64,000 nt of DNA from Ramazzottius varieornatus (lineage: Eukaryota > Animalia > Tardigrada), in contig BDGG01000011.1 in NCBI GenBank assembly GCA_001949185.1, positions 264,123 through 328,122 on the forward strand, given 5' to 3'. Positions 17,383 to 53,462 of this stretch are shown here, one piece after another. The notes beneath the pieces were generated by a model that did not search any database, was not told the origin of the DNA, and worked only from the letters and a program-made list of their open reading frames with translations. Each line of letters opens with the position of its first letter. Within the stretch, counting starts at the first letter, position 1. Made by a program: the position numbers and the translations under genes.

Positions 17383-22457
<5,075 letters not shown>

Positions 22458-26581: not shown

Positions 26582-26995
26582 TTAAGCGGTATCCACCGAC
26601 TGTCCGAAATATCTCTTGTAGGCGTCCGGGTCCGCAGCCGGATTCGCAGCTTGTCTCTTTAGTCGCCGAGGACCAATGCCACCATCCATAGCCGCCGTCC
26701 ATCGGCCTTCGCTCGGTAGGTATCCCTCTTCGTTGAAGAATCCACCAAAGGGCGTATAGGCTGGAGCGCCCGATGCTCCGGCGGATGGTAGGTCGTCCAC
26801 GGAGAAGAGGTCTTGGAGGTTGTAGTTGAACTTGGGGAAGCCCATGAAACCCACTCCGCCACGCTTTCCTGGCTGCCACGAGTTACTGTACTGGAAATGT
26901 TGTCCGTTGGCCATGGTCAAGAGCCCACTGAAACAGACCACGAATAACTCAGCTATCAAGATTCTTCTGAAGAAGGAATATCCGTCGGCTGTCAT
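26582..26995 (-). CDS. Crz: Corazonin/GnRH-superfamily neuropeptide precursor (137 aa, single coding exon)
   Basis: A hydrophobic signal peptide (…ILIAELFVVCFSGLLTMANG) is followed directly by QHFQYSNSWQP-G-KR (pyroGlu start, amidation Gly, dibasic site). Compare insect corazonin pQTFQYSRGWTNa. Further RRLKR and KR sites follow. Confidence 0.88.
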   Translation of the reverse strand: MTADGYSFFRRILIAELFVVCFSGLLTMANGQHFQYSNSWQPGKRGGVGFMGFPKFNYNLQDLFSVDDLPSAGASGAPAYTPFGGFFNEEGYLPSEGRWTAAMDGGIGPRRLKRQAANPAADPDAYKRYFGQSVDTA

Positions 26996-27615
26996 TTTGA
27001 CCGCAAAGTAAAAGAACTGCTCGTGAAGCTGAAGGAAGAAGACTGTCTGCTTTTACTGTTCGGATTCCTCTTTCAAAGCTCCAGCCTTTTATGCCTGTTT
27101 TTTCCGGAAGGCGTTAGTACCTGTAATTCGTATGGGCTCAGTTCGTCGTCTTCTGTGCTACATCGTGACAGGTAATTACCAGCCTACTCCCCGTTTACAT
27201 CCGCCTGAAGACCTTGCAGTGGAGTGCATACCTGAAACTGATGGTCGGCGACGTGGGCCGGTGCCTACCGTCCTGCCAGCTCGGTCGTGTTGTGCAAGAT
27301 ATTTCAGGTTTCCGATGACACCGACCATGAATCACCGGAATTAGAACGGCCTAACTACCTGTGATGAGACTCGTAGGTTGTTGCCATAGTGCAAAACACT
27401 ATCGGATGATGCCTGTTTTTGCGGCGAGATCGGTCCAGCCAGCGCGCTAACATTACGTCCGGGGTTTCCCCGCAATACGTCAGAGCTTATACGGCACACA
27501 AAAACAACCCTTATTTTGATACAACTGGTACACGACGTTTGCAATCGATGGCAAAAAAATATAATAACGTTGAAAGCATGACCAAGAAGCGTAAGTGCTC
27601 GAGCTAGTGCGCGGC

Positions 27616-30600
27616 TTACGGGCCAGCTGGTGAGGTTGGGTCGCCGTCGGCTGTAGGTTTCTTGCTTTCTTTATAGCCTGCGCTAGATTCCTGAGCAGAC
27701 TTGTCCTTTCCGCTCTGTCCTTGATGCTCTTCTTTGGACTTATCATTCTTGGATCCTCCGCTTTGTTCGGCCGGCTTCTTGCTCGGGTGTTCGTCGCCGT
27801 CGCCTTTGTCCTTCGCTAGCTTGGACTTGCCTGAGCTGTAGCTCTCTTCCTTCGACTTGGATGGCTTCTTGTTTGGACCGTCGTCATCATCGTTATCGTT
27901 CTTCGGAGGACTCGCTTTCTTCGGAGGTTCGCGGTCACTGGAAGAGGGCTTATGGTTGCTTTCCTGATTGTAACTATCGTCTTTGGACTTGGTCGGATGT
28001 TCGTCGTGGTCCTTGCCTTTTGTGGGCGTGTGATCCTTGGACCCTCCCCCATGTTCCGCCGGTTTTTTGCTGGGGTAGTCATCTCCGCTATTCTCACCCT
28101 TCGGCGGCTTGGACTTGCCCGGGCTGCGGCTTTCTTCGTTAGACTTCGATGGCTTCTTGTGCTCATCGTTGTTGTTCTGGCTCTTTGGGTAGGTCGGCTG
28201 CTCCAGAGGTTCGTGGCCGCTCGAAGAAGGCTTGTGGTTGCTTCCTTCGTGGTGACTGGTGTCTTTAGACTTGGCCGCATGTTCGTCCTGGTCCTTGCCT
28301 TTGGCGGGTTTGGGGTCCTTGGATCCTCCACCATTTTCTGCAGGCTTCTTGTTCGGGTAGTCTTCGCCATCGTCCTCGTCCTTCGGCGGCTTCGACTTGC
28401 CCGAGCTGTGGCTCTTTTCCTTGGACTTGGATGGCTTCTTGTTTGGACCATCGTCATCATCGTTATCGTTCTTCGGATGACTCGCTTTCTTCGGTGGTTC
28501 GCGGTCACTGGAAGAAGGTTTGTAGTTGTTTTCCTGGTTGTGACTGGTATCTTTGGAGTTGGTGGTTGGATGTTCGTCGTGGTCCTTGCCTTTGGCGGGT
28601 TTGTAGTCCTTGGCTCCTCCACCCTGTTTTGCAGGCTTCTCGCTCAGGTGCTCGTCGCCATGGTCCTCGCCCTTCGGTGTTCTTGATTTGCCAAAGCTAT
28701 GGTTCTCACTCTTAGGCTTCGGTACCTTCTTGCTGGGATATTCCTCCTCGTCGTTGTCGTCCTGCTTCGGGTAGGTCTTCTTTGGAGATTCGTGGTTACT
28801 TGAGGAAGGTGTGTTGCCCTTCGAATGGCCTTTGCTGCCGCCTTCGTAGCCCGATTTTTCCGGTTTTGCTGATTTGTTTGGGAGGTCGTGGTTGGATGAG
28901 GACTTACTGCCGTGATCCTTCGCTGGCTGTTTGGAAGGACCAGAATGACCGTTGTCCTCCGTATTGCTGTATTCGTCCTGCTCGTTCTGATCGTGGCCTG
29001 GTGAAGTCGGGTGATCTTCATCACGATCAGGCTTGCTCGACTTGCCGTGGGCGTTGCTTTTGGAAGGGCCAGTCTTGGCTGGGGTATGACCTTTGCTGGA
29101 AGGATACCTGTTGGGGTCATCGCGATCGTCATCAGCCTTAGTTTCGAGATACGTCTTCTTTGGTGGGCTAGGTTTGGTTGCGGGATGGGAGGTGCCTGTC
29201 TTTGGGCCTTTACCGGTGGGAGACATCGATTTCTTGTCATTTCCACCTGCGACAGAAATCATTTGAAAATCTGTGCAAAAACAGACGGAGATAAGTTCTG
29301 ATCTGATATTCTACCTTTGGACGATGTCGCAGAATAAGTTTGACCGTAGTCTTTGTTGCCTTTTGGTTGTGTTTTCTTGGGCGGAGATTTCGCACCTAGG
29401 ACAAAACGATAACGTACAGATTTCGGTAATTTGAAAAACGCTATCGGTACAGTAACTTATTCGGTGTGGGCTTGTGGGAATTATCTTAAAATTATCCAGT
29501 AAACCTCTCCCAGCAAAGTTCTCTTGATCAATTCTCACCTGCAGCTTTGGAAGCCGGATACTTGGCGGGTGACCCATGTTTGGAAGGCATCGTCTCCTTT
29601 CCACCGCTTGAGGATGGCTTCCCTTTCGGTCCTGACTTCCCGCCTTCCGGCTTGACACCGTATCCCTTCTCCGGAGTTTCTTTCGGCTTGGTGCCACCTT
29701 TGGTGGCATACTGACCACCTTTCGGCTTCGGACCATGACTTTTGTCGGGTGTTTTCTTCGACGTACCCTTCGGTCCTGGGTACGCTCCAGGCTCACCTAG
29801 TCAAAATACTGTAGTCGAACAAACCATCATATGCCGATTACTGTTTTTGTTCTAGAATGATTACCTTTAGGTCGACTTGGTTTCGACGAAGGCATCTTCC
29901 CACCTTTCGGCTTAGTTTCACCCTTTGCTTTCGGACCTTTCCCGTAATCTTCTCCCTTATCGCCTTTCGGTTTAGCCTGGTAACCTTTGGGTTTCGAAGG
30001 AGTCTTGGGATGCTTAGTCACCGGAGGTTTCGGTTTGGGCTGAGGCTTGTATGGCTTTGCCGGTGGCTTCTCAGAAGGCTGCGGAGGTGTCTTTTGGTGT
30101 TGGTGATCTTCCCTGTCGTACGAGGGCTGAGTTTCACCGGTGTGTTCCGGCGTAGCGTACTCATCCGTCTCATCTACCGAAATACAAAAAAGATATCATG
30201 ATCAAGGTATTGTACTGGGGCGTCACGAGTAAGGGGACATTACCTTGTTTATTCTGTCCATCCTCGGACTTTCCGTGCGATTCTGCTTCTCCGTCTCCGT
30301 CATCTTCGCCCTTCGAACCATCATGCTCGTCCTCGTTTCCACTTTGGGCATTCTCATGGTCCTCTCCGTTGCCGTTTCCTTGTTCGTCTTGACGGGTAGA
30401 GTCGACGCCGTTGCCTTCCTCCTGCTCATCGCTTTCCTCGTGCGAAGAACCTTCATCTGCATCCTCTTCCTCGTTGTTCTCGTCACCGAGATCACCATTC
30501 TCCTTCTCGCCGTCGTCTTCGTTCTCTTCATGTTGTTGGTCATCCTCGTCTTCTGAAGTAACTTCCTCTTTCGTCGCAGGTGCGGCCTCACTTTTGGTCA

Positions 30601-32804
30601 ATTCCTCATTGTCATCGTGCGGCGGATAATAGAGGGGTGGTGAACGGTCTTTGGGCGGAGGCGGAATCAGTCCACCCTTCGACGGTGGATGGGACGCCTT
30701 AGGCTTGTTGGGGGCGGGAGCCGGCTTGGCAGTTTGCTTTGGAGCCGGTGCATATGGATTGTGCTTGGGTGGATGCTCCGGTTGGTGCGGCGGGGAGCTG
30801 TGGCCTGCGTGTGGTGGAGGCTGTGGATCCTGTGGGTGAGAAGGCGTATAGGGATGTGGCTGAGGGGGCGACCTGTGTGGTTGTGGTTGCTGGTAGGTGG
30901 GTTCATGCGGTGGCGGGTGTTGTAGCACTTGGTGGGGTACGTAGGGAAGGTGGTCGGGTTGAGGTTCGGCATAGTTGGGTAGACCGTCGTACTGCTCGGA
31001 TGGTGGCTGCTTCTTGGAAGGCAAATGTGACGGTGGTTGTGGTGGCAGTTGAGGCGCTGAAAAGTAATTGGGCGACTCGATGTATCCCGTAGGTGGGTGA
31101 TGTGGCTGATGCTCAGCTGGCGGTAACGGATGTGGACGTGGTTGAGGGTAATGTTCAGCGGGAAGTGGCGGTTGGTATTGGTCCACGGGTCGTTGCGGCG
31201 GTTGAAGTGAAGGTGGTAGACTCTTTTGAAGGCGCTCTAGGTACGTTTCAGCAGGCGGCGTATTTTCAACCGGAAAATACGAGGGCCTGAGGAATGAAAC
31301 AAGCCATTAGTTTATGCCAGACGAACAAGCGGATGGTTTTAACGTACTCTTCTCGTCGTGGGTTGTTTAGCTGCATCGGCTCCCTCCGTTTCGGTTCCTG
31401 CTCTGATCTTTCTCGACTGTCGTCGTCCCGGTCATCGGAGTACTGTGGACGTGATGGTGGAGGTCGCAGCGAACCGTAAGGTCTCTCTTCTTGTCCATCT
31501 TCATCATCTTGCTCGAGTGGCAGCGGAGGCTTCTTCTTCGACGGTCGAGGTTTGTCGTCGGACTCTGCAAGGATGGAGTGACAGACGGTCTTGACGACTT
31601 CAGCCAAATCCTTCTTGGGCGAGGTCCTCGGCTGGTCAGATTTGGCCAGTTCGCGCACGGTGCGTTCCAGCGTTTCTTTAATCTGCTCCATGGACAACTG
31701 TCGTTTCTTGGAGGAACTGGAAGGGTACTTGTCGGCCAGGCAGCTGAGGTCGGTGCAACCGGATGCTGGTGTACTGAGCATTAGCTGGACGATAGCCGAG
31801 ACGCAGTGTTCCAGACGTAAGGTTGACTTCGTCGTGCATTTCTCGTCCCCATCACGGTCCGCATCCCGATGACGTTGGTTCTTTGGTCCATCGCTCAACA
31901 GCCACTGCAGAACCAACATACGTCGGCATGAGTAAGCTTTATATTGGCAGGAGAGCCCGACAAACACCCCAACGTAACTGTCACGCACCTGCATACTGGG
32001 CACAGCACGTGAGCTGTGCATCCCGTTGTTTGCAGGTGCGCGACTTAAGACATTTACATGCTTTTGATATTGCAATCAACACAAAACAGTCGTACCTTCA
32101 TGTCACTTTTCGTCGAGTATCCAGTTTCTTCTTTCTTGCGTGTCATCCGTGGACCACCGTGGTTATTTCCGGAAGAGCCGTAGTCATCTTTCCGGTTCCG
32201 GTCGCGTCCTCGGTCGGGTTCACTAGGGTGATCGCGTTTTCGATCACTCGGACGATCGCGGTCCCGTTCGGTTTTCTCGGGCCTTTGACGGCGATGTCCT
32301 CCAGATGTGTTTCTTGGCGGACCGTAGTCTTCGTCTCGTCCTCGATCGCCTCGGCCTGGTTCTCGATATCCTGTCATGCGCGAGCCCTGCGATGGTTGTC
32401 CACCGTGGGATCCACCTGTTCGATTACCGCCATATGACGGACGATCCCTCAAAGGCTCATCTGACAGGACGTACCTGTCATCGTTTCCTACCAAGCAGAA
32501 ACATCAAAGTCGAAATTGGTACATGCACCATGTTAATGGATCGGCTTCTAATTTCAACCGTCCTTAGAGGTTTTTTGTGGAAGAAGTTATGAAAGTACTC
32601 ACTCGACGACGTCCGTCTGCTAGTCAGAGATCTGTTGTAGGGACCTGACGATTCGCCGTACGCATCGTCGTACCCAGCTTGCCGCCTAAGTCGCCTCAAC
32701 TCGCGAGTATCTCCTCTTGAAACTCCATCTTGCAAAGCAGTCACCAATACGGAAATGAAAGACGCGGAGAGTACCAACAACGACACGGTTCCCAAATTCC
32801 TCAT
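27616..32804 (-). CDS. ~1463-aa secreted, largely intrinsically disordered modular repeat protein (7 exons)
   Basis: Exons 32804-32603, 32487-32096, 31904-31348, 31286-30244, 30173-29865, 29796-29539 and 29246-27616 all have GT-AG boundaries with compatible phases (4392 nt). Signal peptide MRNLGTVSLLVLSASFISVLVTA and a furin-like RRLRR site. Confidence 0.85.
27700..28810 (-). repeat. Coding tandem repeat, about four ~95-aa (~285-bp) units in the last exon of the secreted IDP
   Basis: Units follow the pattern SSS(N/D/G)(H/R)E.P.K...KKPSK...GKSK.PK....D.YP.KKPA..GGG.KD.KP.KGKD.DEH. Units 2 and 4 are near-identical 570 bp apart (tcgtcatcatcgttatcgttcttcgga at 27881 and 28451). Confidence 0.85.
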
Positions 32805-33328
32805 GTTGTTTGAGACAACATGGAGGCAAATCGAAGAAAGTCAAAATCACATAATGACATTAGTCCCACCAAAGCTTCCAGTTGTAGCTTGGTAAGGTGT
32901 TCCAAACTTTATGTTGATCGAATGGTAAACTCCGTGCGAGGTTTCTGTTGCATAATTATCCAAAAGAGTATCCCTGTTGAGTAACCCAAATGCGAACAGC
33001 GAACGTCCTTTTTTTATATATGGTGGGGAGAGACCCTTGCCAGTTTTTCAGACTATCACACCGTGCATCGAGCAGAACAGCGATAACACCACGCGAGAAA
33101 CCGTGAACCAAGGACAATCCGCCAAAGCATTATTTCATGCGGTATAGAGGGAGAAAACAACATCCTTGACCGAAGTCTCTGAACGAAATTTGATTCGTGC
33201 AAGCAAAACTAAACAACACTAAAATACTTATTTCTAAACTTTACCAGATTCTCTCCATCGCGCTGTTATCACACAAGAGAGTGAAAATACTCAGACGTTA
33301 CCGATCGGACTTCGCACTGTAGTACTGT

Positions 33329-34490
33329 TCAGGCGGCTGCTCGATTGTCCAGCTCCTCCAACATATTGTCGGACAACGAGCAGGAGACGCCCACTCCGTC
33401 GGGTTCGACAAACATTTTTGCCACTTTGCCGTTTTCAATCAGCATTGAAAATCTAGAAACAAGCAAATGCCAGCAGTGAAAAAACAGCCGTTGATTCTGG
33501 GGATACGTGTAGAATATTCGAATTCGTCTAAGAGCTTGACAAACAAACTAGACAAGATTGTCTTCCAAGTGGCGCACGTTTCCAGTAGTGTCAGCCGTAA
33601 ATATGCGTTACTTGATAAAACAGCCTTGCGGCGCTGGTTTGTCGAGCTTCGCCCTTTCTCTATGAAATTACTAAATCGACGAGCACGCTTGTGCCATGCA
33701 CGGCCTTGTCAATTACTATCATAGAATAAAGGCAGATTGTCCGGAGATGAACCAACTTCACTGTGCTGCAGGGTATCTCTGATTCCCAACCCCATGAAAC
33801 GGTGCTTACCTCTTGGAACGAATCCCACCAAGCGGTGCCAAATCTTTCTCCATCTTTAATGCTTTCGTGACTTTGGCTTGGGGGTCCGCCAACATATGGA
33901 CCTTTCCCTCCGTTTGCCGTTCATTTGCCCAGGCTGTCATCCTAAACACACATCAACGCATGACATCAGTATGTATGTCTTGCATTAAACTAGGGAAAAT
34001 ATGACGTCATAGGCCATCGAGGCGAACCTACACAAATTGATCATTCACGGCTATACACGCGATAACTTCGATGCCTTTTTTTTGCAGCTCATCAAAGTTG
34101 TCCACATAACTCGGGAGATGCTTCTGTAACAGCAAAGAGATCGTTCTTTGGACTGTTCGGGCCCAAGACCAGCTTGCAGGGTAAATCTTACCCCATCGCA
34201 GCCAGGCGTGAAGGCGCCAGGCACACCAATAAGAATTCCTCGCTTCTTCCCGAAAAGATCGGCCAGCTTGATTTTAGTGCTCTGACCTTCAATTAGCTCT
34301 TCATTCGGCAGCTTGTCGCCTTCCTGCAAACCAACATCCAGTCATTCACATTACTACGATGTATGCCACTTTGAGAACAGCTGCTTACCTTGATGGCTAA
34401 TGACGCCGTCACATGAAGCGCTCGAGTGCCCGCTGGCCCTCGCGCGCAGGTCCTGACCACGGAATTCGAAAGGATTCTTGCAGCGAACAT
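33329..34490 (-). CDS. PRDX5: Peroxiredoxin-5 (atypical 2-Cys) with mitochondrial presequence
   Basis: Exons 34490-34389, 34323-34192, 34123-34032, 33941-33810 and 33452-33329. Motifs: [42 protein letters not shown], and resolving Cys in [11 protein letters not shown]. Confidence 0.95.
33554..33622. repeat. Fixed-spacer palindrome family, single copy (PRDX5 last intron 33453-33809)
   Basis: aagattgtcttccaagtggcgcacg-N23-tatgcgttacttgataaaac. Confidence 0.75.
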
Positions 34491-35103
34491 AATGAATCGT
34501 GTACCTCTTTCAGTATCTGGTGATCGAAAAGGGTATGCTCCTCGAATCTGGATCGGACAACAATACAATTATCTTCGCAGGGAACCAAACACAGTACGGT
34601 TTCCCTCAACTGACTTCAATGACGTCACAAATGGTCAGCACCGCAGGGCTTGCTGTTTACTGGCTATCCTCCAAGGTTGGCACGATCTGCAATGATTCCT
34701 TAGCTGCACGTGCTGCGGCAAGCCAGTCCACCTGGAATCTCACATTTCGTTCTCATACCGCGTACAATTAACCCTTCACAGATTCATCAGCCATCTTACT
34801 CTTCGACTTTGCTTATGCGCCAAATTCCGGGGGTACTTATGGGATGGTCTACTCAGTTCGGGAGCCGTGACGGGCAGTAGAAGGGTCTCAGTGAAGGAGA
34901 AAGCCTTGGAAGGATCGGCGAAAGCGAATGCTTTATCTTTTGGTGTCTGGTAAGCCTTGATTGTTTGATTAATCCAAAATATTGTTTGTTAACTGGGAAA
35001 TTCTTCGTAGTGTTTCTTCTCATGTTCGGCCTCGAAAGTATAATCTGGCTTTCCTGTACTGTATTGTGTTTTACAGGCATAGGTAGTGCGGTGGATATTT
35101 AAG
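34491..35103. promoter_or_regulatory. Probable bidirectional promoter region between PRDX5 (-) and MTF-1 (+), with a perfect CRE (TGACGTCA, 34620-34627) and a CACGTG E-box (~34707)
   Basis: Head-to-head start codons are ~610 bp apart. The motifs are read directly; their function is inferred. Confidence 0.5.
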
Positions 35104-37957
35104 ATGAGTGAGCAGAATAGTTTGAAGATGGAAGAGGAGGAGCCCGAGGATATGGCTGGACGTTGTATCATCTGGACCGAAGAGATTAGCAACTTGGAAA
35201 CACCATTTTTCACGCTCGATGTGCCCGTTGATGCCTACCTACACGACGCCTTAATGGCAGAAGATCATGGTGTAGTGCTGTCGAAGGACGACGAGCGAGC
35301 GCTAGACCAAAGTGCAGACGGCGAAACCGAGAATGAATTGTAAGATGTCCTGGACGAGGAATCTCCCCCCTATCTAATGTTATATTCCTCACCTGACCAT
35401 ATATGTTTCGTCTGCCAGAGCTTCTCAAGACGCTAACGATTATTCGGACGCACCGTTGATGCCGGACGGTCGACGCGCGACGTACACGGTGATTCCTGGC
35501 GACGACTTGCATCCCAAGCGTTATCGCTGTGATTTCAAAGGCTGTGATCGGACTTACAGCACGCAAGGAAACCTCAAAACCCATCAGAAGACTCACCGAG
35601 GTACGGGCGACGTGTTTCTTCTCGTTTCATGACCTTTTGGTAGTCGGATCGTCCCGGAGAATTTAGAGAAAACTTTCTTTTACGGAATAAAAGCAATAAT
35701 AACGCACATCCCTGATTTCTGAATATCTTAGGAGGTAGTTGTGAGGTTTGACGTCATAGTTCGACGTTATGTTAGATGCGCATCCATGACGTCATGCGAC
35801 GGTTCTCAGTTCGGCTCGAAAACAACCGTTGTTTTGACTGTCTTCGGTGCATGCAGTCACATAAATTCCGTTTCGTTTTCTTCCAGGTGAATACACGTTC
35901 TTCTGCCGAGCCGAAGGTTGCACCAAGCAGTTCTTAACGTCTTACAGTCTGAAGATCCACACAAGAGTCCATACGAAAGAGAAGCCATACGATTGTGGAA
36001 TCGGTGGCTGTGTGAAAGCCTACAACACTCTCTACAGGTAATACCTTCCTCACCCGTTTCGTCCTCGTCATCTCCTGAAACACGATGTACAAAAAAGATA
36101 TGTTTGTAGGCTTAGGGCTCATCAACGTATCCATAGTGGAGATACATTCAAGTGTGAAATGTGTGACAAATCTTTCACGACATTGAGTGACTTGAGGAAA
36201 CATGCGCGAACCCACACGGGCGAAAAACCTTTCCTGTAAGTCAAACTCTTCCTGGATTCTCGTTCCCCATGTTTTATGCCTTTCTCTTTTACATAGATGC
36301 GGACGAGAAGGCTGCGGGAAACGTTTTTCAGCCAGCCATCATCTGAAGACGCATGTTAGAACGCACACTGGTAAATGTGGAAATCTCTTAACAGACAGCC
36401 AGTCAAATTTTTGCCCTGTATTTTACTTTTGTTTTTTTTGTGCAGGAGAAAAGCCGTATATATGTGGGGAAAAGGACTGCACGAAGTGCTTCAGCACGCA
36501 ATATAGTCTCAAAAACCATATCAAACGTCATCGACGAGCAGCGTTGAAAGGCCTTCCGCAGGTAGAAATTCCCGTCTCTGATTCTTGAACATCCAGAATT
36601 CTCAATTATGCCGCTTGTCTTACAGCCCCCTCCCGCCTTTGTGACAGTCGTGGAAGAAGTCACAGAACCTGTCTTAAGCTTTAGTCAACCGGACGAAGAA
36701 ATGCCTCTGCTGGATACGACGGACCTGGGTAAATTCAACGAAGTTCCAACTGGTATGGTCATCGTATTCTGTATTGATATTCAGTCTTCCAGCTGACGTA
36801 ATAGATTTCGAAGATGAAATTTAGATTAGTTTCATTGTTCGGGACCCAGAAAAAGAACATTGACAAGATTGTCTCACCAAGAGGCGCACGCTGCCAGCCA
36901 ATGACGCTTAAGGCGTGCTCCACCTGGGAAAGCTGGACCAGATCGCTTACCAAGTGGCGCACGCTCCCAGCAAATGATACCGGCAACGTGCGCCGCTTGG
37001 GAAAACGATCTTGCACGTTGCGTTTGCCGGCCCCTCAGTTTTATTCGGTTCCACTCACGAACGAAGTTGCTTATAGTTGCAGTCCCTGCCGAAGCTTTCA
37101 TGCCACTGGAACCCCCTACAGCGAGCGTTGTTATTGCAACCTTGCCAGCGCCCATCGACATGAGCGTAAAGCCAGCCACAGTCAAGAAGAAACCTATCGT
37201 CTCCAGCCCACCAGCCAAAACTCGCCAGAAAGTCCCCTCTCAGACCTTTACTCAACCTTCCGAAGCACATGCACAAGTAAAAGTCACACAAACACCTGTA
37301 CCGGCACCACCCGCACCCATGATACCACCTCAGCCACCACAGCAACCACTTCTCCTTCCGTCCTTCGGGTCGTTAGTAGTCAAACAGGAAGACGGCATGT
37401 CGCAGGTCTTCCTTATACCCCAGTCATCCCTCAATCTGAACAGCACATCTCCTCAGGTTATACTCAGTCAAAGTCAGACAACCGCATACACTGCCACACA
37501 AACACCCATTCAGCCAAAGCCGATCAAAGCACGGCCTAACAAACCTGTAGCAAAACGGCCCGAGTCAGTTAATGTAAAAGCTGACCAGCCCGTGGCAAAA
37601 AGGCTCGAAAGTGCAGCCAAGAAAGTCAGTCAACCTGTCGTTAAGAAACCAACGGGTAAACCCGTCGCCAGATCGACCGCTGGTGGAAAACCCGGTGGGA
37701 AAGGCGCAGCAAAAAAGAGTCCAGTCAAGAGTTCAGTTTCCTGGGCATCGTCCAACACGATGACACCGTCTAACCTAGGGTTGTCGCTGAGTAACTTTGG
37801 TTTTGATGGGAGTGTAACCCAGATGGCGGACCAGTTGTTTGAGCCCACACCTTTCGGTGCCCATCTGTTTGATTTCAGTGATCTAACTTCGGGTACTTCG
37901 GGGCTACATTGTAGTGATTCAAACGCGAGCTTTATGGTAGCTTTGTCTTCTTCGTGA
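35104..37957 (+). CDS. MTF1: Metal-responsive transcription factor 1 (six C2H2 zinc fingers plus Pro/Ser/Thr-rich C-terminus)
   Basis: The spliced fingers [27 protein letters not shown]|[34 protein letters not shown]...[10 protein letters not shown]|[10 protein letters not shown]...[20 protein letters not shown]|...[16 protein letters not shown]|...[10 protein letters not shown] match the MTF-1 finger array. Confidence 0.93.
36865..37010. repeat. Fixed-spacer palindrome family, tandem pair with 73-bp period (MTF-1 intron 36729-37082)
   Basis: ccaagaggcgcacg-N23-cgtgctccacctgg then ccaagtggcgcacg-N23-cgtgcgccgcttgggaaaacgatc. Confidence 0.9.
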
Positions 37958-41224: not shown

Positions 41225-44200
41225 ATGGTTTTGATGGCTGGCCCGCGCAAATCCCTTCCCGGTCTGCACGACCATGCTTTGCATGGACATCGCAGTGAGG
41301 AGTCCATGCCGCTGAGCGAATCTGCGCTACTAGAGGACTCCCCTGTCCACATGAGCTCGCTGCGGACTCATGATGACCAGACACCGTCCATCCACACTAC
41401 GGCCACCACGGCCAGCACAGACTCCGCCGACATCGGTGAAATCTTACCAGACAATCTCCAACACGAACCCTTACCCCATCCCACTACCGGTTTGCTCAAT
41501 CATGGATGGGATTCCCCTACATTCTTGGGCCTCAGACCGAAAACCTCAAAGAAGGGTATGTCGAAAAAACCCAGTCACTTCTACCGATTGAATGATTAAG
41601 TCGGGTCTTCAGACTGGCCATGGAAACTACTTCAAGTGTGTTTTACCGGCTGGGAAGACGACCAGGCTAGCTCATCTGGAGGAAATACTGTCCAACTCGT
41701 AACAAGGTATGTGTAGGAAATAACTGTCGGCCTTTTAGGCGGGTCAAATTTCCGGCTGTATCTTCGACGGCACCGGACTTTCCTAGTCTCCGTCTCCTTG
41801 TGTCTACTAGCCTGGATAATATTCACCGTTGTAACGTTGTATACCTTGGCGAACCTACAAGCTCAGTGGCACAGGCAACTTGAGCTAGCTTCGTCGCAAT
41901 GCCCATGTCTTCCAGGCACCCTTGATTCCGGTACAGTATCCTCATTTAATATCTCATTTGCTTAGCCGGTTGTCTCCGCGTGAAGTCCTTCAGGGCCCAT
42001 GATGGTGTTATTTCCTTGACAGGCCGCAAGCAGAATGAAGTCGACAGGCTCACCAGTAATAACTGTAATTGCACAAAGGCTTCCAGCGCTGCTCCTACAG
42101 CTATAATACCCATGGATGAGAAAAAGGATAAGGAACCGGAAGTATGCACCACCTTCCAATGCGTTACCACAGGTTGGTGCGACGTGCCGTACATTATTCC
42201 TACATTAGCCCTGAAATATCACTACGTAAACCGCTAAATTTGGAATTTTCTTGTTACGATTTCCTGTAATCCGAAACTCTAACCAGAGAGTCTAAATCAT
42301 CACTTCGGTTTGCTCCTGTACTGGACAGGAAGATAAAAATGTTGCCGTTTATAACACAAGTGCTCGTAGATGTGCCACTGCAAAAGTTCGCTGCGTCCGC
42401 GCATCACGTTATTGTACACGTCAAGTACAACGACGGTCCGGCTTTACTGCCTGCTCAATGCCCCACGGGGGTGCATCGTGACTTACGCGCACGTACTGGG
42501 CGGACGCAACGAGAGTTTGCAGTATTTTCCGTGGTAATTTTTGTTTGTCATTAATCGTGTGTTAACCAAAGCTTTTGCCACAAGCTGGAAACTGCCTCTT
42601 GACAGCTCGTCTTCTGAATTGCATGTTAATGACGCACTGAAGCACGGACGATAATTTAATTATATTATAACGATAATGCATTGAGGCGTCAACATTAGGG
42701 CGGCAGTCAATCGTGTATATAGGATAAACAGCTGACACTACTGTATGTCAGTTGTTTCTGTCAACAAAGCCGTTGTTCCTGCAAATCTCCCCCGTGCATC
42801 CCTTCGCACACTCGGATGCATTCTTAGCGGTTGTTTGTCGCATGAAAGTGACAGGTGTCAAGCGCAGACGGCAACAAACAACTGACATGTGCAGCCATCG
42901 ACGATGAATCGCATAGAAGCTGATTTACACAACCATTGGAAATAGAGCTGTTGAAAGGACAATGACGTTGTCTGTCTTCTGTAGCGGCGCGTTTAATTTC
43001 CGCAATGGATTTCAACGTCGATCCCTGTGAAGACTTCTTCAACTACGCCTGCGCCAACTGGAATAAAGAGCACATTATCCCCGATGATCGCACATCCATT
43101 TCCACATTTGAAGTTATGGCCGATAAACTACAGATTCAACTACGACGTACGCCAAAATCATATGTCACTAATTACACTTTCAGATAAAAACCACTAGTGA
43201 TATTCAGGTCTTCTCGAGGACACATCACAGAATGGAAAGGTGCAAGACAATTCCACCAAGCTGACATCGCAAAACATTTCCGGAGACGCCATGAAAAAGG
43301 CGAAGGTGCGATAACTCATCAGCTAAGAATAGCCTTCCTCCACGCTCTTAGAGAAGTGTAAAAAATTGGTTCTCTGTACGCTCCTCCAGTGTAAACTACG
43401 GGACGGAGAACAAAAAGCAACAGGCCTTCCAGAGAAAGTAACTTGCGCTTTTCAGAATCGAAACGAGAACGCTTTTTCCAGGTGCTATTTGCCTCCTGTA
43501 TGAACGTCACTCAGATTGAGGTACAGGGCGATCAACCCTTACGGGACCTAATGCGGTCTTACGGACACTGGCCAGTAGCCACTTCCTTGTCCTCCATCCG
43601 CACTACCACCACCCCCATCAGCACGAACCCAGGTCCTTCTCAGTCTTCTCTTCCAGCCACCAACATGTCCGTGGAGGAGCTGCTGGCTTCCATCCACCGC
43701 GACCTCAATATTGTCATTGTCATTGATCAATGGGTTGGGCCGGATGATAAAGACTCGGAAAAACACATTCTACAGGTGAGGTGTATCTGTGAACTGTTAT
43801 TGTTACTTCCGTCTCACTTTGTCCATCATTGAGCAGATTGACCAGCCAGATTTCGCTCTGCCCAGTCGTGATCATTACGTTAATCCGCAATGGGCCAAAG
43901 ACTTGGAAGCCTATCTGCAATACATGGTCGACATTGCCGCCATCTTTGGACGCAATAGTGAGACCAGCAGTGGACGAGTGGATAAAACCATCCGACGGGA
44001 ACTACGCCAAGCACTTCAGCTGGAGATTGATCTGGCCAATGTACGCAAGCATCAATAACAGCGTCGAGCAACCGTAGAAAAATGCGCTGTTTGGGATTGC
44101 GAGACACCTGCTAAATGGAAAAACGCTTATTATCGACTCCGAAAGAACGATATTGAAATATCAGTAACGCAAGCAGATAGGTTATCCACGCCGTTCAGCC

Positions 44201-47133
44201 TTGTTTCCCTTAACGCTGCATCAGAAGAAAAATGAGAGCTGAGCAAACAAACTCGGCGTGATCAATTTGAGAAGCGGCGCACGCTCTTCGCTAGTTTTTC
44301 TGAAACCGTGCGCCACTTGGGAAAGCTCGATATGATCGATCACCGAACTGGCGCACTTGCCCAGCCAATAATACTCGAAACGTGCGCCACTTCAAAAATC
44401 ATCGTTGCCGAGTTTGTTCGCCGATCTCCCAAAAGCCTAGTTGCAATATCGGAAAATCCTGAGCTAGGTTATGATATTCCACAGGCTAGTTCACCCGAGT
44501 CAGAGCGTCAAGCAACCCGTAGCGCTCTGTACAACAAGATGACACTCGTCGAACTCCAACAAGAAACGCCCTCATTCAACTGGAGCCTATACTTCCGGAC
44601 CTTGTTAGGCTATTCCCTTAACTCAACCGAACCTATCGTGGCTTACGGTTTACCCTACCTGAAATCCGCCACCACCATTATCCGGAGGTACACCCGCCGG
44701 CAATTATGGAACTATGCATTGTGGAGAGTGGCCATGGAGTTGGTCCCCCACCTGTCGTCAGCATACCTGGAAGCCCGCGCTAACTTTCACAAGGTCCTGA
44801 TGGGCGTATCCCAGCAGCGGGCTAGATGGCAGCAGTGCATCGACTTTGTTAATGAGAAGATGGGCATGGCTACTGGCGCCCTCTTCATCCGTGAACATTT
44901 TAACCAACAGAGCAAGGACAAGGTACTTCCCCCTCTGAAACTCCATTCTATTAGCTTTCGCGTTTCCGTTTGATGAACGGTTTTTCAATAGGCGCTGGAA
45001 ATGATTCACATGATTCGGGAATCCTTCATCGAAATGGTTGATGAACAGACTTGGATGGAATCTGAAACGTCAAACAAGGCCCGAGAAAAGGTAGCGTGTT
45101 TTCGACATTGGAGGCTTCTGGTGTTCCCTGACTAAAATTTACCGGATCCTGCATCAGCACAATGATTGGGACACTCGGAACCCAGAAGGAAAAGCGCTGT
45201 TATGACCAGTTGAAATTTTTTAACCTTGGCGAATTTCTGCTGCCGAAGTCTCATTTCGTCTCTTGAAAAATTTAGGGTTCTGTAGTAATCGTCTGCTGCT
45301 TTTCAGGCTCAATTTATGAATGAGAAAATTGGATATCCCAACTTTTTGCTGAATACAACCGCACTCAACAAGGAATACGAAGCTGTAAGCCACCTGTTGC
45401 ACTACGCTTGAATTCAAACTTACAGAGCTGAAGCTTTGCCTGATTACAGCTGATCGTAACCGACGACGTCTTCGTGGTCAACGTCGCCCGCATATTAGGC
45501 TATCAGTCCAAGAAAAACGTCGACCGATTACGCCAACCTGTGGACGCTGAAAGGTACGAGATATTTTTCCGAAAAGAAGAAAAATTGACCCCCTGATTGA
45601 GTACCGGCTGAATACGCAGGTGGACAACGAGTGGGCCAGCCATCGTCAACGCTTTTTACAACCCGAACAAGAATGATATTGGTAAGGGCAAACTGTTCCG
45701 TGAATCATCTGATTTCCCCGCAAGTGCGCGGACCGCTTCCTCTGTTGCAGTTTTCCCAGCTGGTATTTTGCAGCCGCCCTTTTACAGCGCTTCATATCCA
45801 CGGTGAGTTCCTCTCGAAAATATTTACGTCCTGCCGAGATTTTCTGCAGGAAGAAGATTGCATGTACTCGACTTGGTTATCAACGTATATTAACGTATCT
45901 TAACGGATCGGGTTTTAGATCAATGAATTTCGGCGGTATTGGAGTTGTGGTCGGCCACGAAATATCCCACGGCTTTGATATGAAAGGTAACGTGAAGAAC
46001 CATGTAGTACATTCAAGTGCATATATACGGAGATACTGTATATGTTGCAGGCCGGCAGTTCGATCGATACGGTAACCTGAAAGAATGGTGGAACAACGTT
46101 ACCGCCGAGGCCTTCTACCGCAAAGCTGAATGCTTCGTGGACCAGTACTCGCAGTACATCGTCGACGAAGTCGGCCTCCATGTAAGTTCTAGAAAAGACC
46201 CAATGCCACGGGTAGTTAACCCCCATGAGACCCCGCATTTCTCTACCTTCGGCCATTACTTCTCATGGGTATTCAATCATTCATCAATTAACAATACCTT
46301 CTGTTTTTATTGCAGGTGGATGGCCGACTGACACTGGGAGAGAACATTGCCGATAATGGTGGGCTAAAGCAAGCCTATCGGGTACGTTGGCTGTTCCTGC
46401 TCTGCACGTCGGAAGATTTTGGACCGGTTGACCTGGGTGGTTGGTTTTCCTTGCAGGCCTATCATCGATGGGTTGCTCGTAATGGGGCGGAAGAACGCCT
46501 GCCCGGTTCCAATTTGACGCATGATCAACTCTTCTTTCTCAACTATGCCCAGATCTGGTGCGGCTCTATGCGCATCCAAGATGCTATGAACAAGATCTCG
46601 GCTTCCGTCCACAGCCCAGGACCCATCAGGTAGCACAGTCTGCTCGCTCGACATCCGTACATAATTACTTCGGTTTCAATTTGAAGCCTGCTAAATATTC
46701 AGCACACAGCAAGCCAGGCTAAAGGTCCAAATTACATAACACATGCATCACACCACGCTATGACTGATGTGATCCGTCGCACGCACTTGGCTGCAGTGGC
46801 CATGGCCAGCAGTATTGAAAGCTTCGAATAGGTTCTGTATTTGAAATCGTACAACTGTGTACGGATTTCGGGCGAGCGGGCTGTAGATTTTGAGTGCCTT
46901 TGAGAAGAACTGAATCAAGCGTCAAGGCTGGCACCAATAGGCTGTCACAAAACTAACCTTCGGTGAAGGCACTCTTTACTAACTTAAGTATGTATCAAGT
47001 ATTTATACATGGCAATGTCGTTGTCAGGGTTCTTGGACCGTTGTCCAACATGCCGGAATTCTCCAAGGCATTCAGTTGTCCTGCCGGTAGCCGCTATAAT
47101 CAGCCCGCTCACAGGCAATGCTCATTATGGTGA
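41225..47133 (+). CDS. Neprilysin / M13 zinc metallopeptidase (type II membrane protein, Nep1-like), multi-exon
   Basis: TM segment [22 protein letters not shown]; EVCTTFQCV; [19 protein letters not shown]; [12 protein letters not shown]; GHEISHGFD (HExxH); ENIADNGG; VHSPG; ends CSLW*. The start codon is uncertain (41225, 41234 or 41306). Confidence 0.95.
44260..44403. repeat. Fixed-spacer palindrome family, tandem pair with 74-bp period (neprilysin intron 44041-44484)
   Basis: gaagcggcgcacg-N23-cgtgcgccacttggg then cgaactggcgcact-N23-cgtgcgccacttca. Confidence 0.9.
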
Positions 47134-49614: not shown

Positions 49615-52600
49615 ATGGTTCGAGATGATGCAATGAATGTGGATGTTTCAGATTTCAGTCCGCCCAGAAAACAAAAATTCAACGACTCTTTTGACGTCGA
49701 CCTGTTAAAAATGACCACGTCTACCTTCACTGAGAGTCCTTCCTCTCAGCACGACCCATCTTTGTCCAACAATGCTTTCCGTCCCTGCGAGGCACTCCAT
49801 CAAAATTGGACATCGCCTATCGAGGAAATTGCCACCTTCATCACGACGTACAACCCTCATTACTTCACCAACCGACCGTGGATCATTAGGTGCGTACGTA
49901 CCTCATCACCATCATTTTCAAGTACATCGTTCCAACATCTGCGCAAGTTAGTACTTCAAACTGAACGTTACTCCTCTTTATCAGTGGTCTGTTCCTGCTG
50001 GCCGTAATTGGGTTGGTGGCCAACTGTGCGGTCATCTGCTACATAGCCTGCCTGAAACGTGCTGGCCACATGTCGGCCTTGAACTTGCTGGTTCTCCAGC
50101 TGGCCGTGGCCGATACCCTAGTCTGCCTCTTCTGTCTTCTGGCCGACGCCATCTGGAACATCACCATGAAATGGAATGGCAGCACTGAACTTTGCCGGTT
50201 CGTCAAGTTCATGCAAATGTTCAGGTACATGCATCAGCACCTTCTGAGCCATTCGCGGTTTGGCCTTGTAAAAGCAATTAGTGACAAGTGAGACGCCCAC
50301 GATTTTTTCTCGGCCCATCCAGGGCAGTGTTCCGACCTTCACCGAAATTAGTCTATCCTCACTTGCCAGATTGGCGCTAATTTACATATGGTTAAAAGAA
50401 AATACCAGGCAGTTACCGCAATTTAGGGGCCAGTAGGCTGATTTAATTATGATAAGATTCCATTTGAGATTTGCCCAATATTTCCCTTTTGCACACATGC
50501 AACGGCTGGCTGGCAAATTGCACCACCGTTGCTTCACGCTACGGGTTCATGTGGACGGATTACTTCCGTTTCCGGCAGCCCTTTCACGCTTCGGCTTTCG
50601 CAGAGGACGACTCTTTTGAAGAGCGGATTTCTGGCCTAAAATGCCTGCACCCTCCGTCTTGACAAACCAAATCTCCACTCTGAAGGACACACACTCTGCA
50701 CTTCGTCCCTATAAGCTTTCTCACAAAGCCCATGAAACGCAGTTGAGTTCACTTTTGAACAAACCCGAACACTCTCCAAGAGATAAGAGGAACGATGGAG
50801 AGAAAGGAACTGATCTGAAAAGCAGAGATGTAAATCTGGATAGTCGCCTGTCTCCTCGTGTTATCAAGGAGGTTTCCTATCTGCAGAAGCATCTGCTCGA
50901 TCCTGTTGGTAAAGTAGCCGGAAGTGAGTCGATGTTGAAGTGATGGTGATGAGCACGAATGTCGTGCCGGATGACGCCTTAATTCTTCGAGAGAGCAGAG
51001 TGCTAACTTAATTAGTCCGTTGTTGTCTTCTTCTGGACATTAGTGTGGTAGGACATTCCTAGAACATTTACGAGAGACATTTAATTGAGGGTACACCTAG
51101 ATTGAGTAACTTCCCTTTCGCTCATAATCGATTACCGTCCTCCGTTGCACGACATTATATAATATTAGCCTCGATTACCAGTTACGGAGGTTACGCCTCT
51201 ACAAGGGATTCGACATCCAAGAACCAGGAAGCGACATCGTTGCGTCATTTTGAACGAAGATTGATAATTAATTTTCCTAGTTGTCTATTACACGACGCCT
51301 TGTTGCAGTTTATACGCTTCCACCATGATCCTGACAGGAATGACCGTGGAGCGTTGCATTAACGTGACTTATCCCTTGTCCTTATCGCGCGCAGATGCTG
51401 CGCTTTCACGTTCTCGCATCATCTCCGTCGCCGCTTGGCTTCTCGCCGCCCTTTGCAGTATTCCTCAAGTACGAAGAGAGCAGTCACATTCAACTGTTGA
51501 GATGAGAGCCTCCCAACACGAAAGCTTGCCAGAAACTAAATTCATACGTTTCTCTGTCGTTCAGGCAATCATCTTCCACGTGGAAAGAGCCCCCACCTGC
51601 ACGGACTTTCACCAGGTAGGAATATTATTTTTCCTTCCACGAACTAAACCTCAATTGAATCGCAAAACAAATTCATTTTGACAAACCTTTTGAAGAATAA
51701 AAGGGAACGTGGGACGTGGGAAAGGATTCACCCAGATCGTATCCCCAAGTGGCGCACGCCCACCGCAGTAACAAGGAGAATGTGCGTCACTTGGGACAAC
51801 GATCTGAGCGAGACCGTCTGACAACTTCCCAAAGAAGAAATTACGAAAAATAAAAATTATAAGACAGAATTTAAAGCTATGAAAGAAAATGAATACATAG
51901 TGATATGAAAATTGATATGTTCTTTTCTGTAGTGCGTTACGCACGGAGCCTACAGTTCCCGACTTCAAGAAGTGGCCTACACCATGTCGACGTTGTGCAT
52001 AATGTTCGTTATTCCTCTCATCATCTTTGCGGCTTGCTTCATCATCTTCTTGAAGACGTCCCAAGAATCCCGGATTGCGCTAGGTATTTACTGAGTTTAG
52101 TCCTATTCAATGCATGCTTCACCCATCAGCGACCAACGCTGGTCAAATGGCTGATCGAATTACCCTCGATCACAAAAAGTCCCACAATCCGTAAGGTTCA
52201 AATGCCCTTATCGGTTACACGCACGATGAGAAATTACGGGCCAGGTCTTTTCGCTACAGCGGTACGGAAGCACGTACGTAACTTGATTGAATTTCCATGC
52301 TGCTATCTTTCCCATAATTTCTCGTCGTGGTGTACGAGGTACTGTCAAACAACAAAGGGGCAAACAAAACAGGCAGGATTAATTTTTCCGATATTGACTG
52401 CGGTAAGCTATATTGATGAATGGAAGGTCTCGGAAGGGATCTTTAAATGCCGTAATTCCCAAATCCAAGCATAACGCTAAGTAATGCCCAAAACCAAACG
52501 CAACACTAAAATTGTGGAAATGCCTCCTCGAATACGAAAAACTGTGTAGATGAAAAGCTGGAAGAACACAATAAAATCTTGGTACTTTTAAAAATCTGAA

Positions 52601-53462
52601 TATCTCATCTGAAAATTCTGAGCGAAAAAAATTGTAGAGTGTGAGAGGTTGAGAGCGTTTTGAAAAGGTTGAAGTTAAGGCTCAGAGTATTTTAAAAAGG
52701 TCTGATAAGGTTGAGAGAATTTTGAAAAATTTATGTTTGCTCTACAGGAAAAAGCCCATCCAAAATAGTGCTGGGCCGGAATGCCACCGAGCGTTCTCGT
52801 CGAAGAAGTACTCTGGCGGTGACCTTGATGGCCCCCCACAATCTGGCTATTTTACTGCATTCCAAGTTATTCCAGCTGCACCGAACAGTTAGTGCTGTCA
52901 GCTCCACTGAGAGGGATGGACTTCACGAGCCCGATACTGCACTGGATTCTCCTTCAGCTTTGAATATTGAGTTGCAACACGTCAACCTACCTGCAGATTA
53001 TGGTCGGCGGCTGTACCGACGAACTCGCCGGTTTTCCATCTGGATGACCTTCGGCATCGCCCTGGCTTACATCGTTTGTTGGGGTGAGCACCCAGCTACC
53101 GCAAAAACTTTACTCAATTTTCCTTGTTTTCTTCTAGCGCCGTATTATATCTCGATGCTCGGGTATCTATTCGACTGCGAAATTTCCAACGGTTGGATGA
53201 CAATCATTCTCTCTTTCGGTAAGTCTTCAAAAACAAAAGTCACGAAACATCGATGTACTTTCTTCTTCTTACAGGAATGACTTCCACGTTACTGAATCCG
53301 GTGATCTACGGTATCTTCAAGTTCATGTCGATCCGTCGTGAGCGTGTCGATATCATACCCAGCTTAGTCATGCAGTTGAAAGAACTCAATGAGAACGGCC
53401 CAGTGTCGGGAACCGAAGTACACCGTTCGTCAGCGACTTTACCGAGCCGCACCAAGCTCTAA
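49615..53462 (+). CDS. CrzR: Corazonin-receptor-like GPCR (GnRH receptor superfamily), 8 exons
   Basis: Exons ~49615-49889, 49985-50224, 51309-51468, 51565-51615, 51933-52083, ~52748-53083, ~53138-53218 and ~53275-53462. Motifs: LAVADTLVCLFCLLADAIWNITMKW...CRFVKFMQMFSLYAST; ECL2 IFHVERAPTCTDFHQCVTHGAYSSRLQEVAYT (CrzR-type F.V.RGPF...F.QCVT.G.Y...WQE..Y); CWAPYY; NPVIY. Confidence 0.85.
51735..51804. repeat. Fixed-spacer palindrome family, single copy with a 22-nt spacer (CrzR intron 51616-51932)
   Basis: gatcgtatccccaagtggcgcacg-N22-tgtgcgtcacttgggacaacgatc. Confidence 0.9.
52646..52729 (+). repeat. Short degenerate minisatellite (~30-bp unit, about 3 copies) in a CrzR intron
   Basis: aggttgagagcgttttgaaaagg / aggctcagagtattttaaaaagg / aggttgagagaattttgaaaaa. 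Confidence 0.6.

What the first reader, a model, noticed from the sequence alone, without database searches (positions are those of the whole stretch)
26582..53462. Corazonin-like ligand, a neprilysin and a corazonin receptor co-located within ~27 kb: a possible clustered neuropeptide signalling module
Seen: a precursor giving pQHFQYSNSWQP-amide (26582-26995), an M13 neprilysin (41225-47133) and a GnRH-family receptor with CrzR-type TM2-3 and ECL2 signatures (49615-53462). Established: corazonin acts through CrzR, and neprilysins inactivate small neuropeptides; ligand and receptor genes are generally not linked in animal genomes. Inference: this may be a physically linked ligand, off-switch and receptor set, possibly co-regulated. 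An opsin in the same window is suggestive given corazonin's links to photoperiod and stress in insects, but that could be chance.
Basis: partly seen in the sequence, partly recalled or inferred. Interest (0 to 1): 0.8.

Follow-up and report, generated by a model that had tools for sequence, protein, structure and literature searches.

The report
Tardigrade corazonin genes, likely chance neighbours
In the water bear Ramazzottius varieornatus, real genes for a predicted corazonin-type signalling peptide, a peptide-cutting enzyme and a corazonin-type receptor lie within 27 kb, but unrelated genes sit between them, the receptor is one of several copies, and enzyme and receptor are not neighbours in two other tardigrades, so the grouping is likely a by-product of gene shuffling.

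Summary
The window is from Ramazzottius varieornatus. All three genes are real and at the stated coordinates: an intronless precursor predicted to give pQHFQYSNSWQP-amide, an 18-exon M13 neprilysin (RvY_14837) and an 8-exon receptor (RvY_14838) with corazonin-receptor motifs. The 'module' reading is mostly not supported. Three unrelated transcribed genes (a low-complexity secreted protein, a peroxiredoxin, MTF-1) lie between peptide and neprilysin. The receptor is one of at least 5 corazonin-receptor-like genes in this genome, and there are at least 5 M13 peptidases. The receptor's orthologues in Hypsibius and Paramacrobiotus lie on other scaffolds than the neprilysin, which stays with CMIP in all three species. 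A fly neprilysin cuts corazonin, but also 15 other peptides of the 23 tested. Left open: I could not find the peptide's orthologue in the other two species, so an older peptide-receptor linkage is untested. Chance of one such pair is small (0.08%), or about 2-14% per genome over all neuropeptide pairs (assumed counts). A side finding is the tardigrade expansion of corazonin-type receptors. The scan's earlier notes showed no matching finding (4 look-ups).

The parts
26582..26995 (-). Single-exon corazonin-type precursor, 137 aa: predicted signal peptide, QHFQYSNSWQP, Gly, Lys-Arg, then associated peptides with further basic sites
   Evidence: unspliced RNA-type contigs; a public 110-aa model starts at Met28 and so lacks the leader
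26870..26902 (-). Codons of the predicted mature peptide pQHFQYSNSWQP-amide (11 residues; Gly and Lys-Arg follow)
   Evidence: 6-8 of 11 identities to six published corazonin-type peptides
27414..32804 (-). Intervening gene 1: multi-exon, predicted secreted, low-complexity Pro/Lys/His/Asp-rich protein with a 282-bp tandem repeat (ends approximate)
   Evidence: ORFs; spliced RNA-type contigs of 4.7-4.9 kb; repeat 27748-28677; no Pfam hit for the one exon tested
33009..34568 (-). Intervening gene 2: peroxiredoxin (Prdx5-like; the subtype is my reading of the sequence; ends approximate)
   Evidence: Redoxin/AhpC-TSA hits below the curated cut-off; spliced RNA-type contigs
35076..38077 (+). Intervening gene 3: MTF-1-like zinc-finger transcription factor (RvY_14835; ends approximate)
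   Evidence: table row
41225..47133 (+). M13 neprilysin, 18 exons, 935 aa, predicted type II membrane zinc peptidase (RvY_14837, assigned from gene order and family); the best fly match of its Hypsibius orthologue is Nep1
49615..53462 (+). Corazonin-receptor-type GPCR, 8 exons (49615-49889, 49985-50224, 51309-51468, 51565-51615, 51933-52083, 52748-53083, 53138-53218, 53275-53462), RvY_14838; long third intracellular loop, ERC in place of DRY
17386..23063 (-). CMIP (RvY_14829), flanking marker that stays on one scaffold with the neprilysin in three tardigrades (5' end approximate)
   Evidence: LRR hits; table rows
7333..11028 (-).
   Evidence: 7tm_1 in two exons; TM7 lysine motif

Best explanation
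Three ordinary neuropeptide-related genes are neighbours in Ramazzottius, likely because within-chromosome shuffling put one of several corazonin-type receptor copies next to an older CMIP-neprilysin block, and they likely do not form a selected, co-regulated unit. Shown: gene structures, motifs, transcripts, intervening genes, paralogue counts, and different scaffolds for neprilysin and receptor in two relatives (the scaffolds are read from accession numbers and best-BLAST tables). Inferred from the known pathway: the precursor is secreted, cut at Lys-Arg, amidated at Gly and cyclised at Gln to pQHFQYSNSWQP-amide. That peptide would signal through one or more of the genome's corazonin-type receptors via Ca2+/cAMP, possibly but not necessarily this one. 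The neprilysin would act as a broad surface peptidase that can cut it among many other peptides.
For: (1) Tree of 16 tardigrade receptors: RvY_14838, Hypsibius OWA52473 and Paramacrobiotus XP_055345632 form one clade, support 100/99. (2) The Hypsibius neprilysin orthologue BV898_10937 is inside scaffold MTYJ01000097, with 3 genes seen upstream and 6 downstream on it. OWA52473 lies between genes of scaffolds 269 and 270. (3) In Paramacrobiotus, neprilysin and CMIP are on NW_026570428. The receptor is on a 911,753-bp scaffold, probably NW_026570281: 7 of 7 rows seen (of 21) with nearby accession numbers on both sides are there. (4) 12 Ramazzottius genes from RvY_14819-14848 with a visible Hypsibius match map to 7 scaffolds, in line with the published low gene-order conservation. 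(5) Three unrelated transcribed genes intervene. (6) At least 5 receptor paralogues and 5 M13 genes in this genome. (7) Fly Nep4 cuts corazonin, but 16 of 23 peptides tested in all. (8) In humans, ligand-receptor pairs are no closer than chance.
Against: Taken alone the coincidence is unlikely: 0.08% for one named pair within 22.6 kb in 55.83 Mb, 0.4-1.4% with 5 receptors and 1-3 ligands, and 0.2% for one of 5 M13 genes falling in the gap. The peptide gene's orthologue was not found in Hypsibius or Paramacrobiotus, so its linkage to the receptor or to the neprilysin there is unknown. The Hypsibius receptor lies within two genes of a scaffold end, and its neighbour BV898_16925 was not seen. Synteny rests on accession numbers and best-BLAST columns of truncated tables, not on DNA. 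Neprilysin and receptor are adjacent and on the same strand, about 2.5 kb apart in coding sequence.
Confidence: 0.75

Rival explanations
1. Peptide and receptor are an older linked, cognate pair that was duplicated or moved together, and one inversion in the Ramazzottius line placed the neprilysin, MTF-1, peroxiredoxin and secreted gene between them.
For: Low prior chance of the pair. The present order and strands (CMIP, peptide -, three genes, neprilysin +, receptor +) could arise from an adjacent pair by one inversion (inference). Corazonin precursors are reported as duplicated in tardigrades (Koziol 2018, recalled; not held), which would fit paired duplication.
Against: No positive evidence. 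The peptide lies inside the CMIP-neprilysin interval that is conserved without the receptor. Gene order decays fast between these species. In humans there is no excess of close pairs.
Confidence: 0.12
2. The first reader's module: ligand, off-switch and receptor are held together by selection and co-regulated, possibly as a new arrangement in Ramazzottius.
For: All three are transcribed in the same RNA-type runs X12 and X16 (contigs only, so no levels). A fly neprilysin does cut corazonin. The three-way coincidence is rare if named in advance.
Against: The neprilysin-receptor adjacency is absent in 2 of 2 relatives. Three unrelated genes intervene. The enzyme family is promiscuous, and this enzyme's closest fly match is Nep1 rather than the tested Nep4. 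Ligand and receptor of a neurohormone are usually made in different cells (general knowledge), so co-regulation in cis is not expected.
Confidence: 0.07
3. Not exclusive of the others: this receptor copy is not the receptor for this peptide. It has diverged and answers to another tardigrade corazonin paralogue or ligand.
For: At least five receptor clades in the tardigrade tree. The window's receptor has ERC for DRY and a third loop roughly 50-60 residues longer than its two orthologues. The clade P0015/P0016 looks closer to canonical corazonin receptors in TM7 (by eye).
Against: The TM2, TM3, ECL2 and TM7 motifs of corazonin receptors are kept, and the peptide is a typical 11-mer.
Confidence: 0.4

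Closest known systems
Arthropod corazonin (pQTFQYSRGWTNa; centipede pQTFQYSKGWEPa) and lophotrochozoan corazonin-type 'GnRH' peptides (scallop pQNFHYSNGWQPa, leech pQSIHFSRSWQPa); PMC5592718, passages
   Same: 11 residues, Gln1, Ser6, Trp9, amide donor plus dibasic site directly after a leader; 6, 7, 8 and 6 of 11 identities. A pattern built around the peptide pulled 14 arthropod-type corazonin genes among 20 metagenome hits.
   Different: Ser in place of the usual Gly8 (as in the leech). No intron in the coding region, whereas the insect gene has one (PMC5024129, passage). No Pfam hit and no detectable whole-precursor homologue outside one close relative.
Corazonin receptors (CrzR) of arthropods, annelids and molluscs; sequences read in the PMC5024129 supplement
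   Same: TM2 FC...W, TM3 QMFSLY.ST, ECL2 P...DF.QCVTHG.Y, TM5 QE..Y, TM7 FGM...NP.IYG.F. AKH/ACP receptors have MP.E..W, R.FG.YLSS, QCV.F and FA..NSC instead.
   Different: Member of a tardigrade expansion (at least 5 in Ramazzottius, 9 in Hypsibius, 9 in Paramacrobiotus); ERC for DRY; long third loop; ECL2 starts HVE as in AKH receptors; ligand untested.
Drosophila neprilysins Nep1 and Nep4 (M13); PMC5140268, passages
   Same: Predicted type II membrane zinc peptidase with HExxH, GENIAD and CxxW; Nep4 cuts corazonin at T/F and G/W.
   Different: The best fly match of the orthologue is Nep1; the cleavage data seen are for Nep4; substrate range is broad, not dedicated.
Anecdotal ligand-receptor linkages in animal genomes (HGF-MET, MST1-RON, IL-1 cluster); Hurst and Lercher 2005, PMC1309615 (abstract, sections 3 and 5)
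   Same: A ligand gene near a gene of its receptor family; such cases once predicted a true pair (MST1-RON).
   Different: This case is much tighter in bases (22.6 kb) but in a 56-Mb genome. The human test found no excess of close pairs over chance.

Membership tests
Corazonin-type precursor | Signal peptide followed directly by the peptide, then Gly and a dibasic site | tested here: met
   (hydropathy only; no signal-peptide predictor available)
Corazonin-type precursor | 11-mer with Gln1, Ser6, Trp9 | tested here: met
   6-8 of 11 identities to six published peptides
Corazonin-type precursor | Gly8-Trp9, seen in most members | tested here: not met
   Ser8; the leech peptide also has Ser there, so the feature is not absolute
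Corazonin-type precursor | Activates a corazonin receptor | not testable with these tools
   needs a cell assay
AKH / ACP peptide | 8-10 residues with Trp at position 8 (AKH); QxTFSRxW start (ACP) | tested here: not met
   11 residues, Trp9; definitions
Corazonin receptor | Class A 7TM receptor of the GnRH superfamily | tested here: met
   Pfam 7tm_1; top 3 PDB matches are GnRH receptors, E 3e-31 to 2e-26
Corazonin receptor | CrzR-type TM2, TM3, ECL2 and TM7 motifs, and no AKHR/ACPR/GnRHR TM2 motif | tested here: met
   4 of 4 CrzR-type patterns present and the alternative TM2 pattern absent in P0003; patterns drawn by eye, checked against AKHR/ACPR
Corazonin receptor | Groups with CrzR, not AKHR/ACPR/GnRHR, in a tree with reference receptors | not testable with these tools
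   No reference receptor was among the fetched proteins. Indirect support: two members of the tree (OWA50872, and the match to OWA52782) have fly CrzR as best hit, and a separate gene (RvY_15579) matches AkhR
Corazonin receptor | Activated by a corazonin-type peptide | not testable with these tools
   needs a cell assay
M13 neprilysin | HExxH, GENIAD, NA(F/Y)Y, C-terminal CxxW, N-terminal membrane anchor, M13 domains | tested here: met
Functional gene cluster (ligand-peptidase-receptor module) | Members adjacent, without unrelated genes between | tested here: not met
   three transcribed unrelated genes between peptide and neprilysin
Functional gene cluster (ligand-peptidase-receptor module) | Neprilysin-receptor linkage kept in relatives | tested here: not met
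   different scaffolds in 2 of 2 species
Functional gene cluster (ligand-peptidase-receptor module) | Peptide-receptor linkage kept in relatives | tested here: inconclusive
   peptide orthologue not found
Functional gene cluster (ligand-peptidase-receptor module) | Closer than chance | tested here: inconclusive
Functional gene cluster (ligand-peptidase-receptor module) | Co-expression | not testable with these tools
   only assembled contigs were available

The most novel reading that the evidence does not exclude
Tardigrades expanded corazonin signalling into several receptor lineages, and this peptide gene and RvY_14838 are a cognate pair kept in tight linkage across eutardigrades. Genomic position would then sort ligands to receptors in the expanded family, and this would be a rare case of a conserved neuropeptide ligand-receptor linkage.
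Probability: 0.1. Interest if true: 0.65.

Novelty: new member of a known kind. Interest (0 to 1): 0.2.

Why it matters
If the linkage were conserved and cognate, it would be an unusual exception to the finding that ligands and receptors are not closely linked, and a shortcut for pairing peptides with receptors in an expanded family. On present evidence it is a likely coincidence. What remains useful: a corrected, signal-peptide-bearing model of a tardigrade corazonin precursor that can be synthesised and tested, and evidence that eutardigrades carry five or more corazonin-receptor-like genes. I did not find that expansion described in my searches; the key paper on tardigrade neuropeptides (Koziol 2018) was not held and may cover it.

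Tried and rejected
No whole genome was held, so there is no direct paralogue census or empirical count of close ligand-receptor pairs. Searches for orthologues of the precursor found only one close unnamed relative, P0002. The ESM Atlas gave only leads under 0.9 for the precursor, several of them neuropeptide precursors, and generic GPCR clusters for the receptor. A degenerate corazonin pattern in metagenomes gave 14 arthropod-type corazonin genes and 6 chance-like hits of 20, none recognisably tardigrade. None of the 20 loci had a receptor match, but the flanks are mostly under 10 kb, so this is not evidence. Supplement look-ups for RvY_14830-14832 and for Hypsibius genes between CMIP and neprilysin found no precursor row; the tables were cut when stored. 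A paper search for the accessions found 0 papers. No RNA holder was listed as RNA on record; the runs used are guessed RNA and contigs only, so expression levels were not compared. No complex prediction was sent: the peptide is 11 residues, below the tool's useful size. An AKH/ACP identity was rejected for both peptide and receptor. My first recalled label 'Nep4' for the enzyme was dropped after one search gave Nep1 as best fly match. The opsin link was not pursued: it lies 15.5 kb further off, beyond another GPCR and CMIP, and its position in relatives was not seen. Earlier scan notes: nothing relevant. Supplements of PMC10730642, which may list tardigrade corazonin accessions, could not be read.
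Full report
Source. A receptor exon (49986-50222) matches one database protein at 100%: RvY_14838-2 of the tardigrade Ramazzottius varieornatus, GAV04571.1, on a 1,810,422-bp contig. Published table rows place neighbouring RvY numbers on scaffold BDGG01000011.

The peptide gene. 26995-26582 (-) encodes 137 aa: a hydrophobic leader, then QHFQYSNSWQP, Gly, Lys-Arg. It is the only motif of this kind in six frames of the window, and a degenerate pattern matches once against 0 in 100 shuffles. The same pattern pulled 14 arthropod-type corazonin genes among 20 metagenome hits. The peptide shares 6-8 of 11 residues with six published corazonin-type peptides and fails the AKH definition of 8-10 residues with Trp8. 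Guessed-RNA contigs of runs X12 and X16 cover the gene unspliced, and X16 reaches past the first ATG; X5 gave little cover. A public 110-aa model starts at Met28 and so lacks the leader. Processing to pQHFQYSNSWQP-amide is inferred from the standard pathway, not shown.

The neprilysin. An 18-exon model over 41225-47133 gives 935 aa with 17 of 17 GT-AG introns, a predicted membrane anchor, HEISH, NAFY, GENIAD and CSLW. Pfam agrees, and contigs join 10 listed introns (table cut). By gene order and family it is RvY_14837, and its Hypsibius match has fly Nep1 as best hit. Fly Nep4 cuts corazonin but hydrolysed 16 of 23 peptides tested (PMC5140268, passages). Cleavage is therefore plausible and unspecific. 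At least five Ramazzottius M13 genes appear in partial tables: RvY_14837, 17472, 06594, 07001, 07469.

The receptor. Eight exons over 49615-53462 reproduce GAV04571.1 exactly, and its best solved relatives are GnRH receptors. Compared by eye with reference sequences in the supplement of PMC5024129 (passages and parts 2 and 4 of 5), it has the corazonin-receptor forms of TM2, TM3, ECL2, TM5 and TM7 and lacks the AKH/ACP/GnRH TM2 form. One AKHR-like trait is the HVE start of ECL2. A pattern check found the same in the window's receptor and most of the 14 tardigrade proteins. I could not build a tree with reference receptors, because none was fetched. Indirectly, two relatives in my tree have fly CrzR as best hit, while AkhR matches a different gene, RvY_15579. 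Caution: one vasopressin-type row also had CrzR as best blastx hit. The search returned 14 proteins among 7,998 scored candidates, all tardigrade. A tree of 16 of these and their cluster members shows at least five clades, with RvY_14838, Hypsibius OWA52473 and Paramacrobiotus XP_055345632 together at 100/99 (midpoint root; paralogues known only from tables are not in it). Counts, combining sequences and table rows: Ramazzottius at least 5 (RvY_14838, 13137, 07326, 07874, 13521), Hypsibius at least 9, Paramacrobiotus at least 9.

The neighbourhood. The peptide ATG and receptor ATG are 22,620 bases apart. Between peptide and neprilysin lie three transcribed, spliced genes with no known link to neuropeptides: a low-complexity predicted secreted protein, a peroxiredoxin and MTF-1. 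The opsin is real but lies 15.5 kb beyond the peptide, past another GPCR and CMIP.

Conservation. I used best-BLAST columns in the supplements of PMC11233135 (rows only; the large tables were cut when stored and hold part of each gene set). CMIP and neprilysin share a scaffold in all three species: RvY_14829/14837; BV898_10929/10937 on MTYJ01000097; LOC129601005/129601017 on NW_026570428. In Hypsibius the neprilysin is interior: BV898_10929-10931, 10940-10942 and 10944-10946 are on the same scaffold, while 10932-10936, 10938, 10939 and 10943 were not seen. The receptor orthologue OWA52473 falls between OWA52471 (scaffold 269) and OWA52474 (scaffold 270), whose Ramazzottius matches are on other scaffolds. 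In Paramacrobiotus the receptor orthologue is on a 911,753-bp scaffold. The 7 rows seen (of 21) with accession numbers on both sides are all on NW_026570281. Numbers can interleave between scaffolds, but scaffold sizes fall with accession number, so NW_026570428 is probably under 0.3 Mb and not that scaffold (inference). MTF-1 is on a third scaffold in both species. Genes just downstream of the receptor (RvY_14839, 14840, 14841, 14843, 14848) stay together on Hypsibius scaffold 16, without the receptor's orthologue. In all, 12 genes of this region map to 7 Hypsibius scaffolds, matching the published picture of linkage without gene order (PMC5531438, passages). The neprilysin-receptor adjacency is thus absent in 2 of 2 relatives. 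Given that Paramacrobiotus is the outgroup (general knowledge), it is most simply a Ramazzottius-line arrangement.

What is left open. The peptide's orthologue was not found in either relative. The Hypsibius receptor sits within two genes of a scaffold end, next to an unseen gene, BV898_16925. A single inversion could have separated an adjacent peptide-receptor pair. So the three-gene module is not conserved, but the two-gene linkage is untested.

Chance. With a 55.83-Mb genome, one named pair falls within 22.6 kb with probability 0.08%. With five receptors and one to three ligands it is 0.4-1.4%. Over an assumed 30-150 ligand-receptor pairs it is 2-14% per genome. One of five M13 genes inside the gap has 0.2%, and one of an assumed 50-200 neuropeptide-related genes has 2-8%. 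These figures assume uniform placement, and the pair and class counts are my assumptions. The coincidence is uncommon for one genome but expected now and then in a large scan. In humans, ligands are no closer to their receptors than chance (PMC1309615, abstract and sections 3 and 5).

Literature. No paper in my searches describes this locus or a corazonin ligand-receptor linkage (listings and abstract starts only, unless named above). Also seen as passages: PMC10730642 (mentions hypothetical tardigrade corazonin; supplements not readable), PMC7854359 (Ramazzottius expanded class A GPCRs), PMC4923880, PMC5592718. Koziol 2018 (Gen Comp Endocrinol) is recalled only, as reporting tardigrade corazonin with duplicated precursors; it was not held and may already list this precursor and the receptors.

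Verdict. Observation confirmed and identities right; the module reading is largely not supported. Best explanation: chance neighbourhood after rearrangement (0.75). Rivals: an older peptide-receptor linkage (0.12) and a selected three-gene module (0.07). New member of a known kind; interest 0.2.

Noticed in passing
P0003-P0016, P0019-P0021; table rows: Eutardigrades carry an expanded set of corazonin-receptor-like genes (at least 5 in Ramazzottius, 9 in Hypsibius, 9 in Paramacrobiotus) in at least five clades; most public names call them GnRH receptors.
   Followed up: partly
window 26914-26995 (-): The public 110-aa model of the precursor starts at Met28 and loses the predicted signal peptide; an RNA-type contig extends past the upstream ATG.
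   Followed up: yes
window 17386-47133: CMIP and the neprilysin stay on one scaffold, 8-12 gene numbers apart, in all three tardigrades, although genes between them (for example MTF-1) differ.
   Followed up: partly
window 27414-32804 (-): Large spliced gene for a predicted secreted low-complexity Pro/Lys/His/Asp-rich protein with 3.2 copies of a 282-bp repeat; no Pfam hit for the exon tested.
   Followed up: no
window 53600-54630 (-): A small predicted secreted protein (probably RvY_14839, with a Hypsibius match) converges on the receptor; RNA-type contigs run across both, with minus-strand introns at about 53943-54010 and 54108-54191, suggesting overlapping 3' ends.
   Followed up: no
window 52748-53138 (+): The receptor's third intracellular loop is roughly 50-60 residues longer than in its two orthologues; the second public isoform (RvY_14838-1) keeps a 54-base intron inside TM6 and is probably non-functional.
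   Followed up: partly
window 39600-41114: Neprilysin transcript contigs extend well upstream of the ATG, past 40500; a separate annotated gene number (RvY_14836) falls between MTF-1 and the neprilysin and may be a spurious model. Contigs of run X16 carry about 195 extra letters near 41114.
   Followed up: no
window 1-14000: A nuclear-receptor zinc-finger exon (498-959, -), a membrane-protein-like ORF pair with no Pfam hit for the ORF tested (5476-6357, +), an opsin (7333-11028, -) and an unclassified class A GPCR (about 13062-13742, +).
   Followed up: no
window 33563-33586 and 36946-37014: Short sequences here recur at many other places in DNA and RNA contigs (many loose ends), suggesting a dispersed small repeat.
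   Followed up: no
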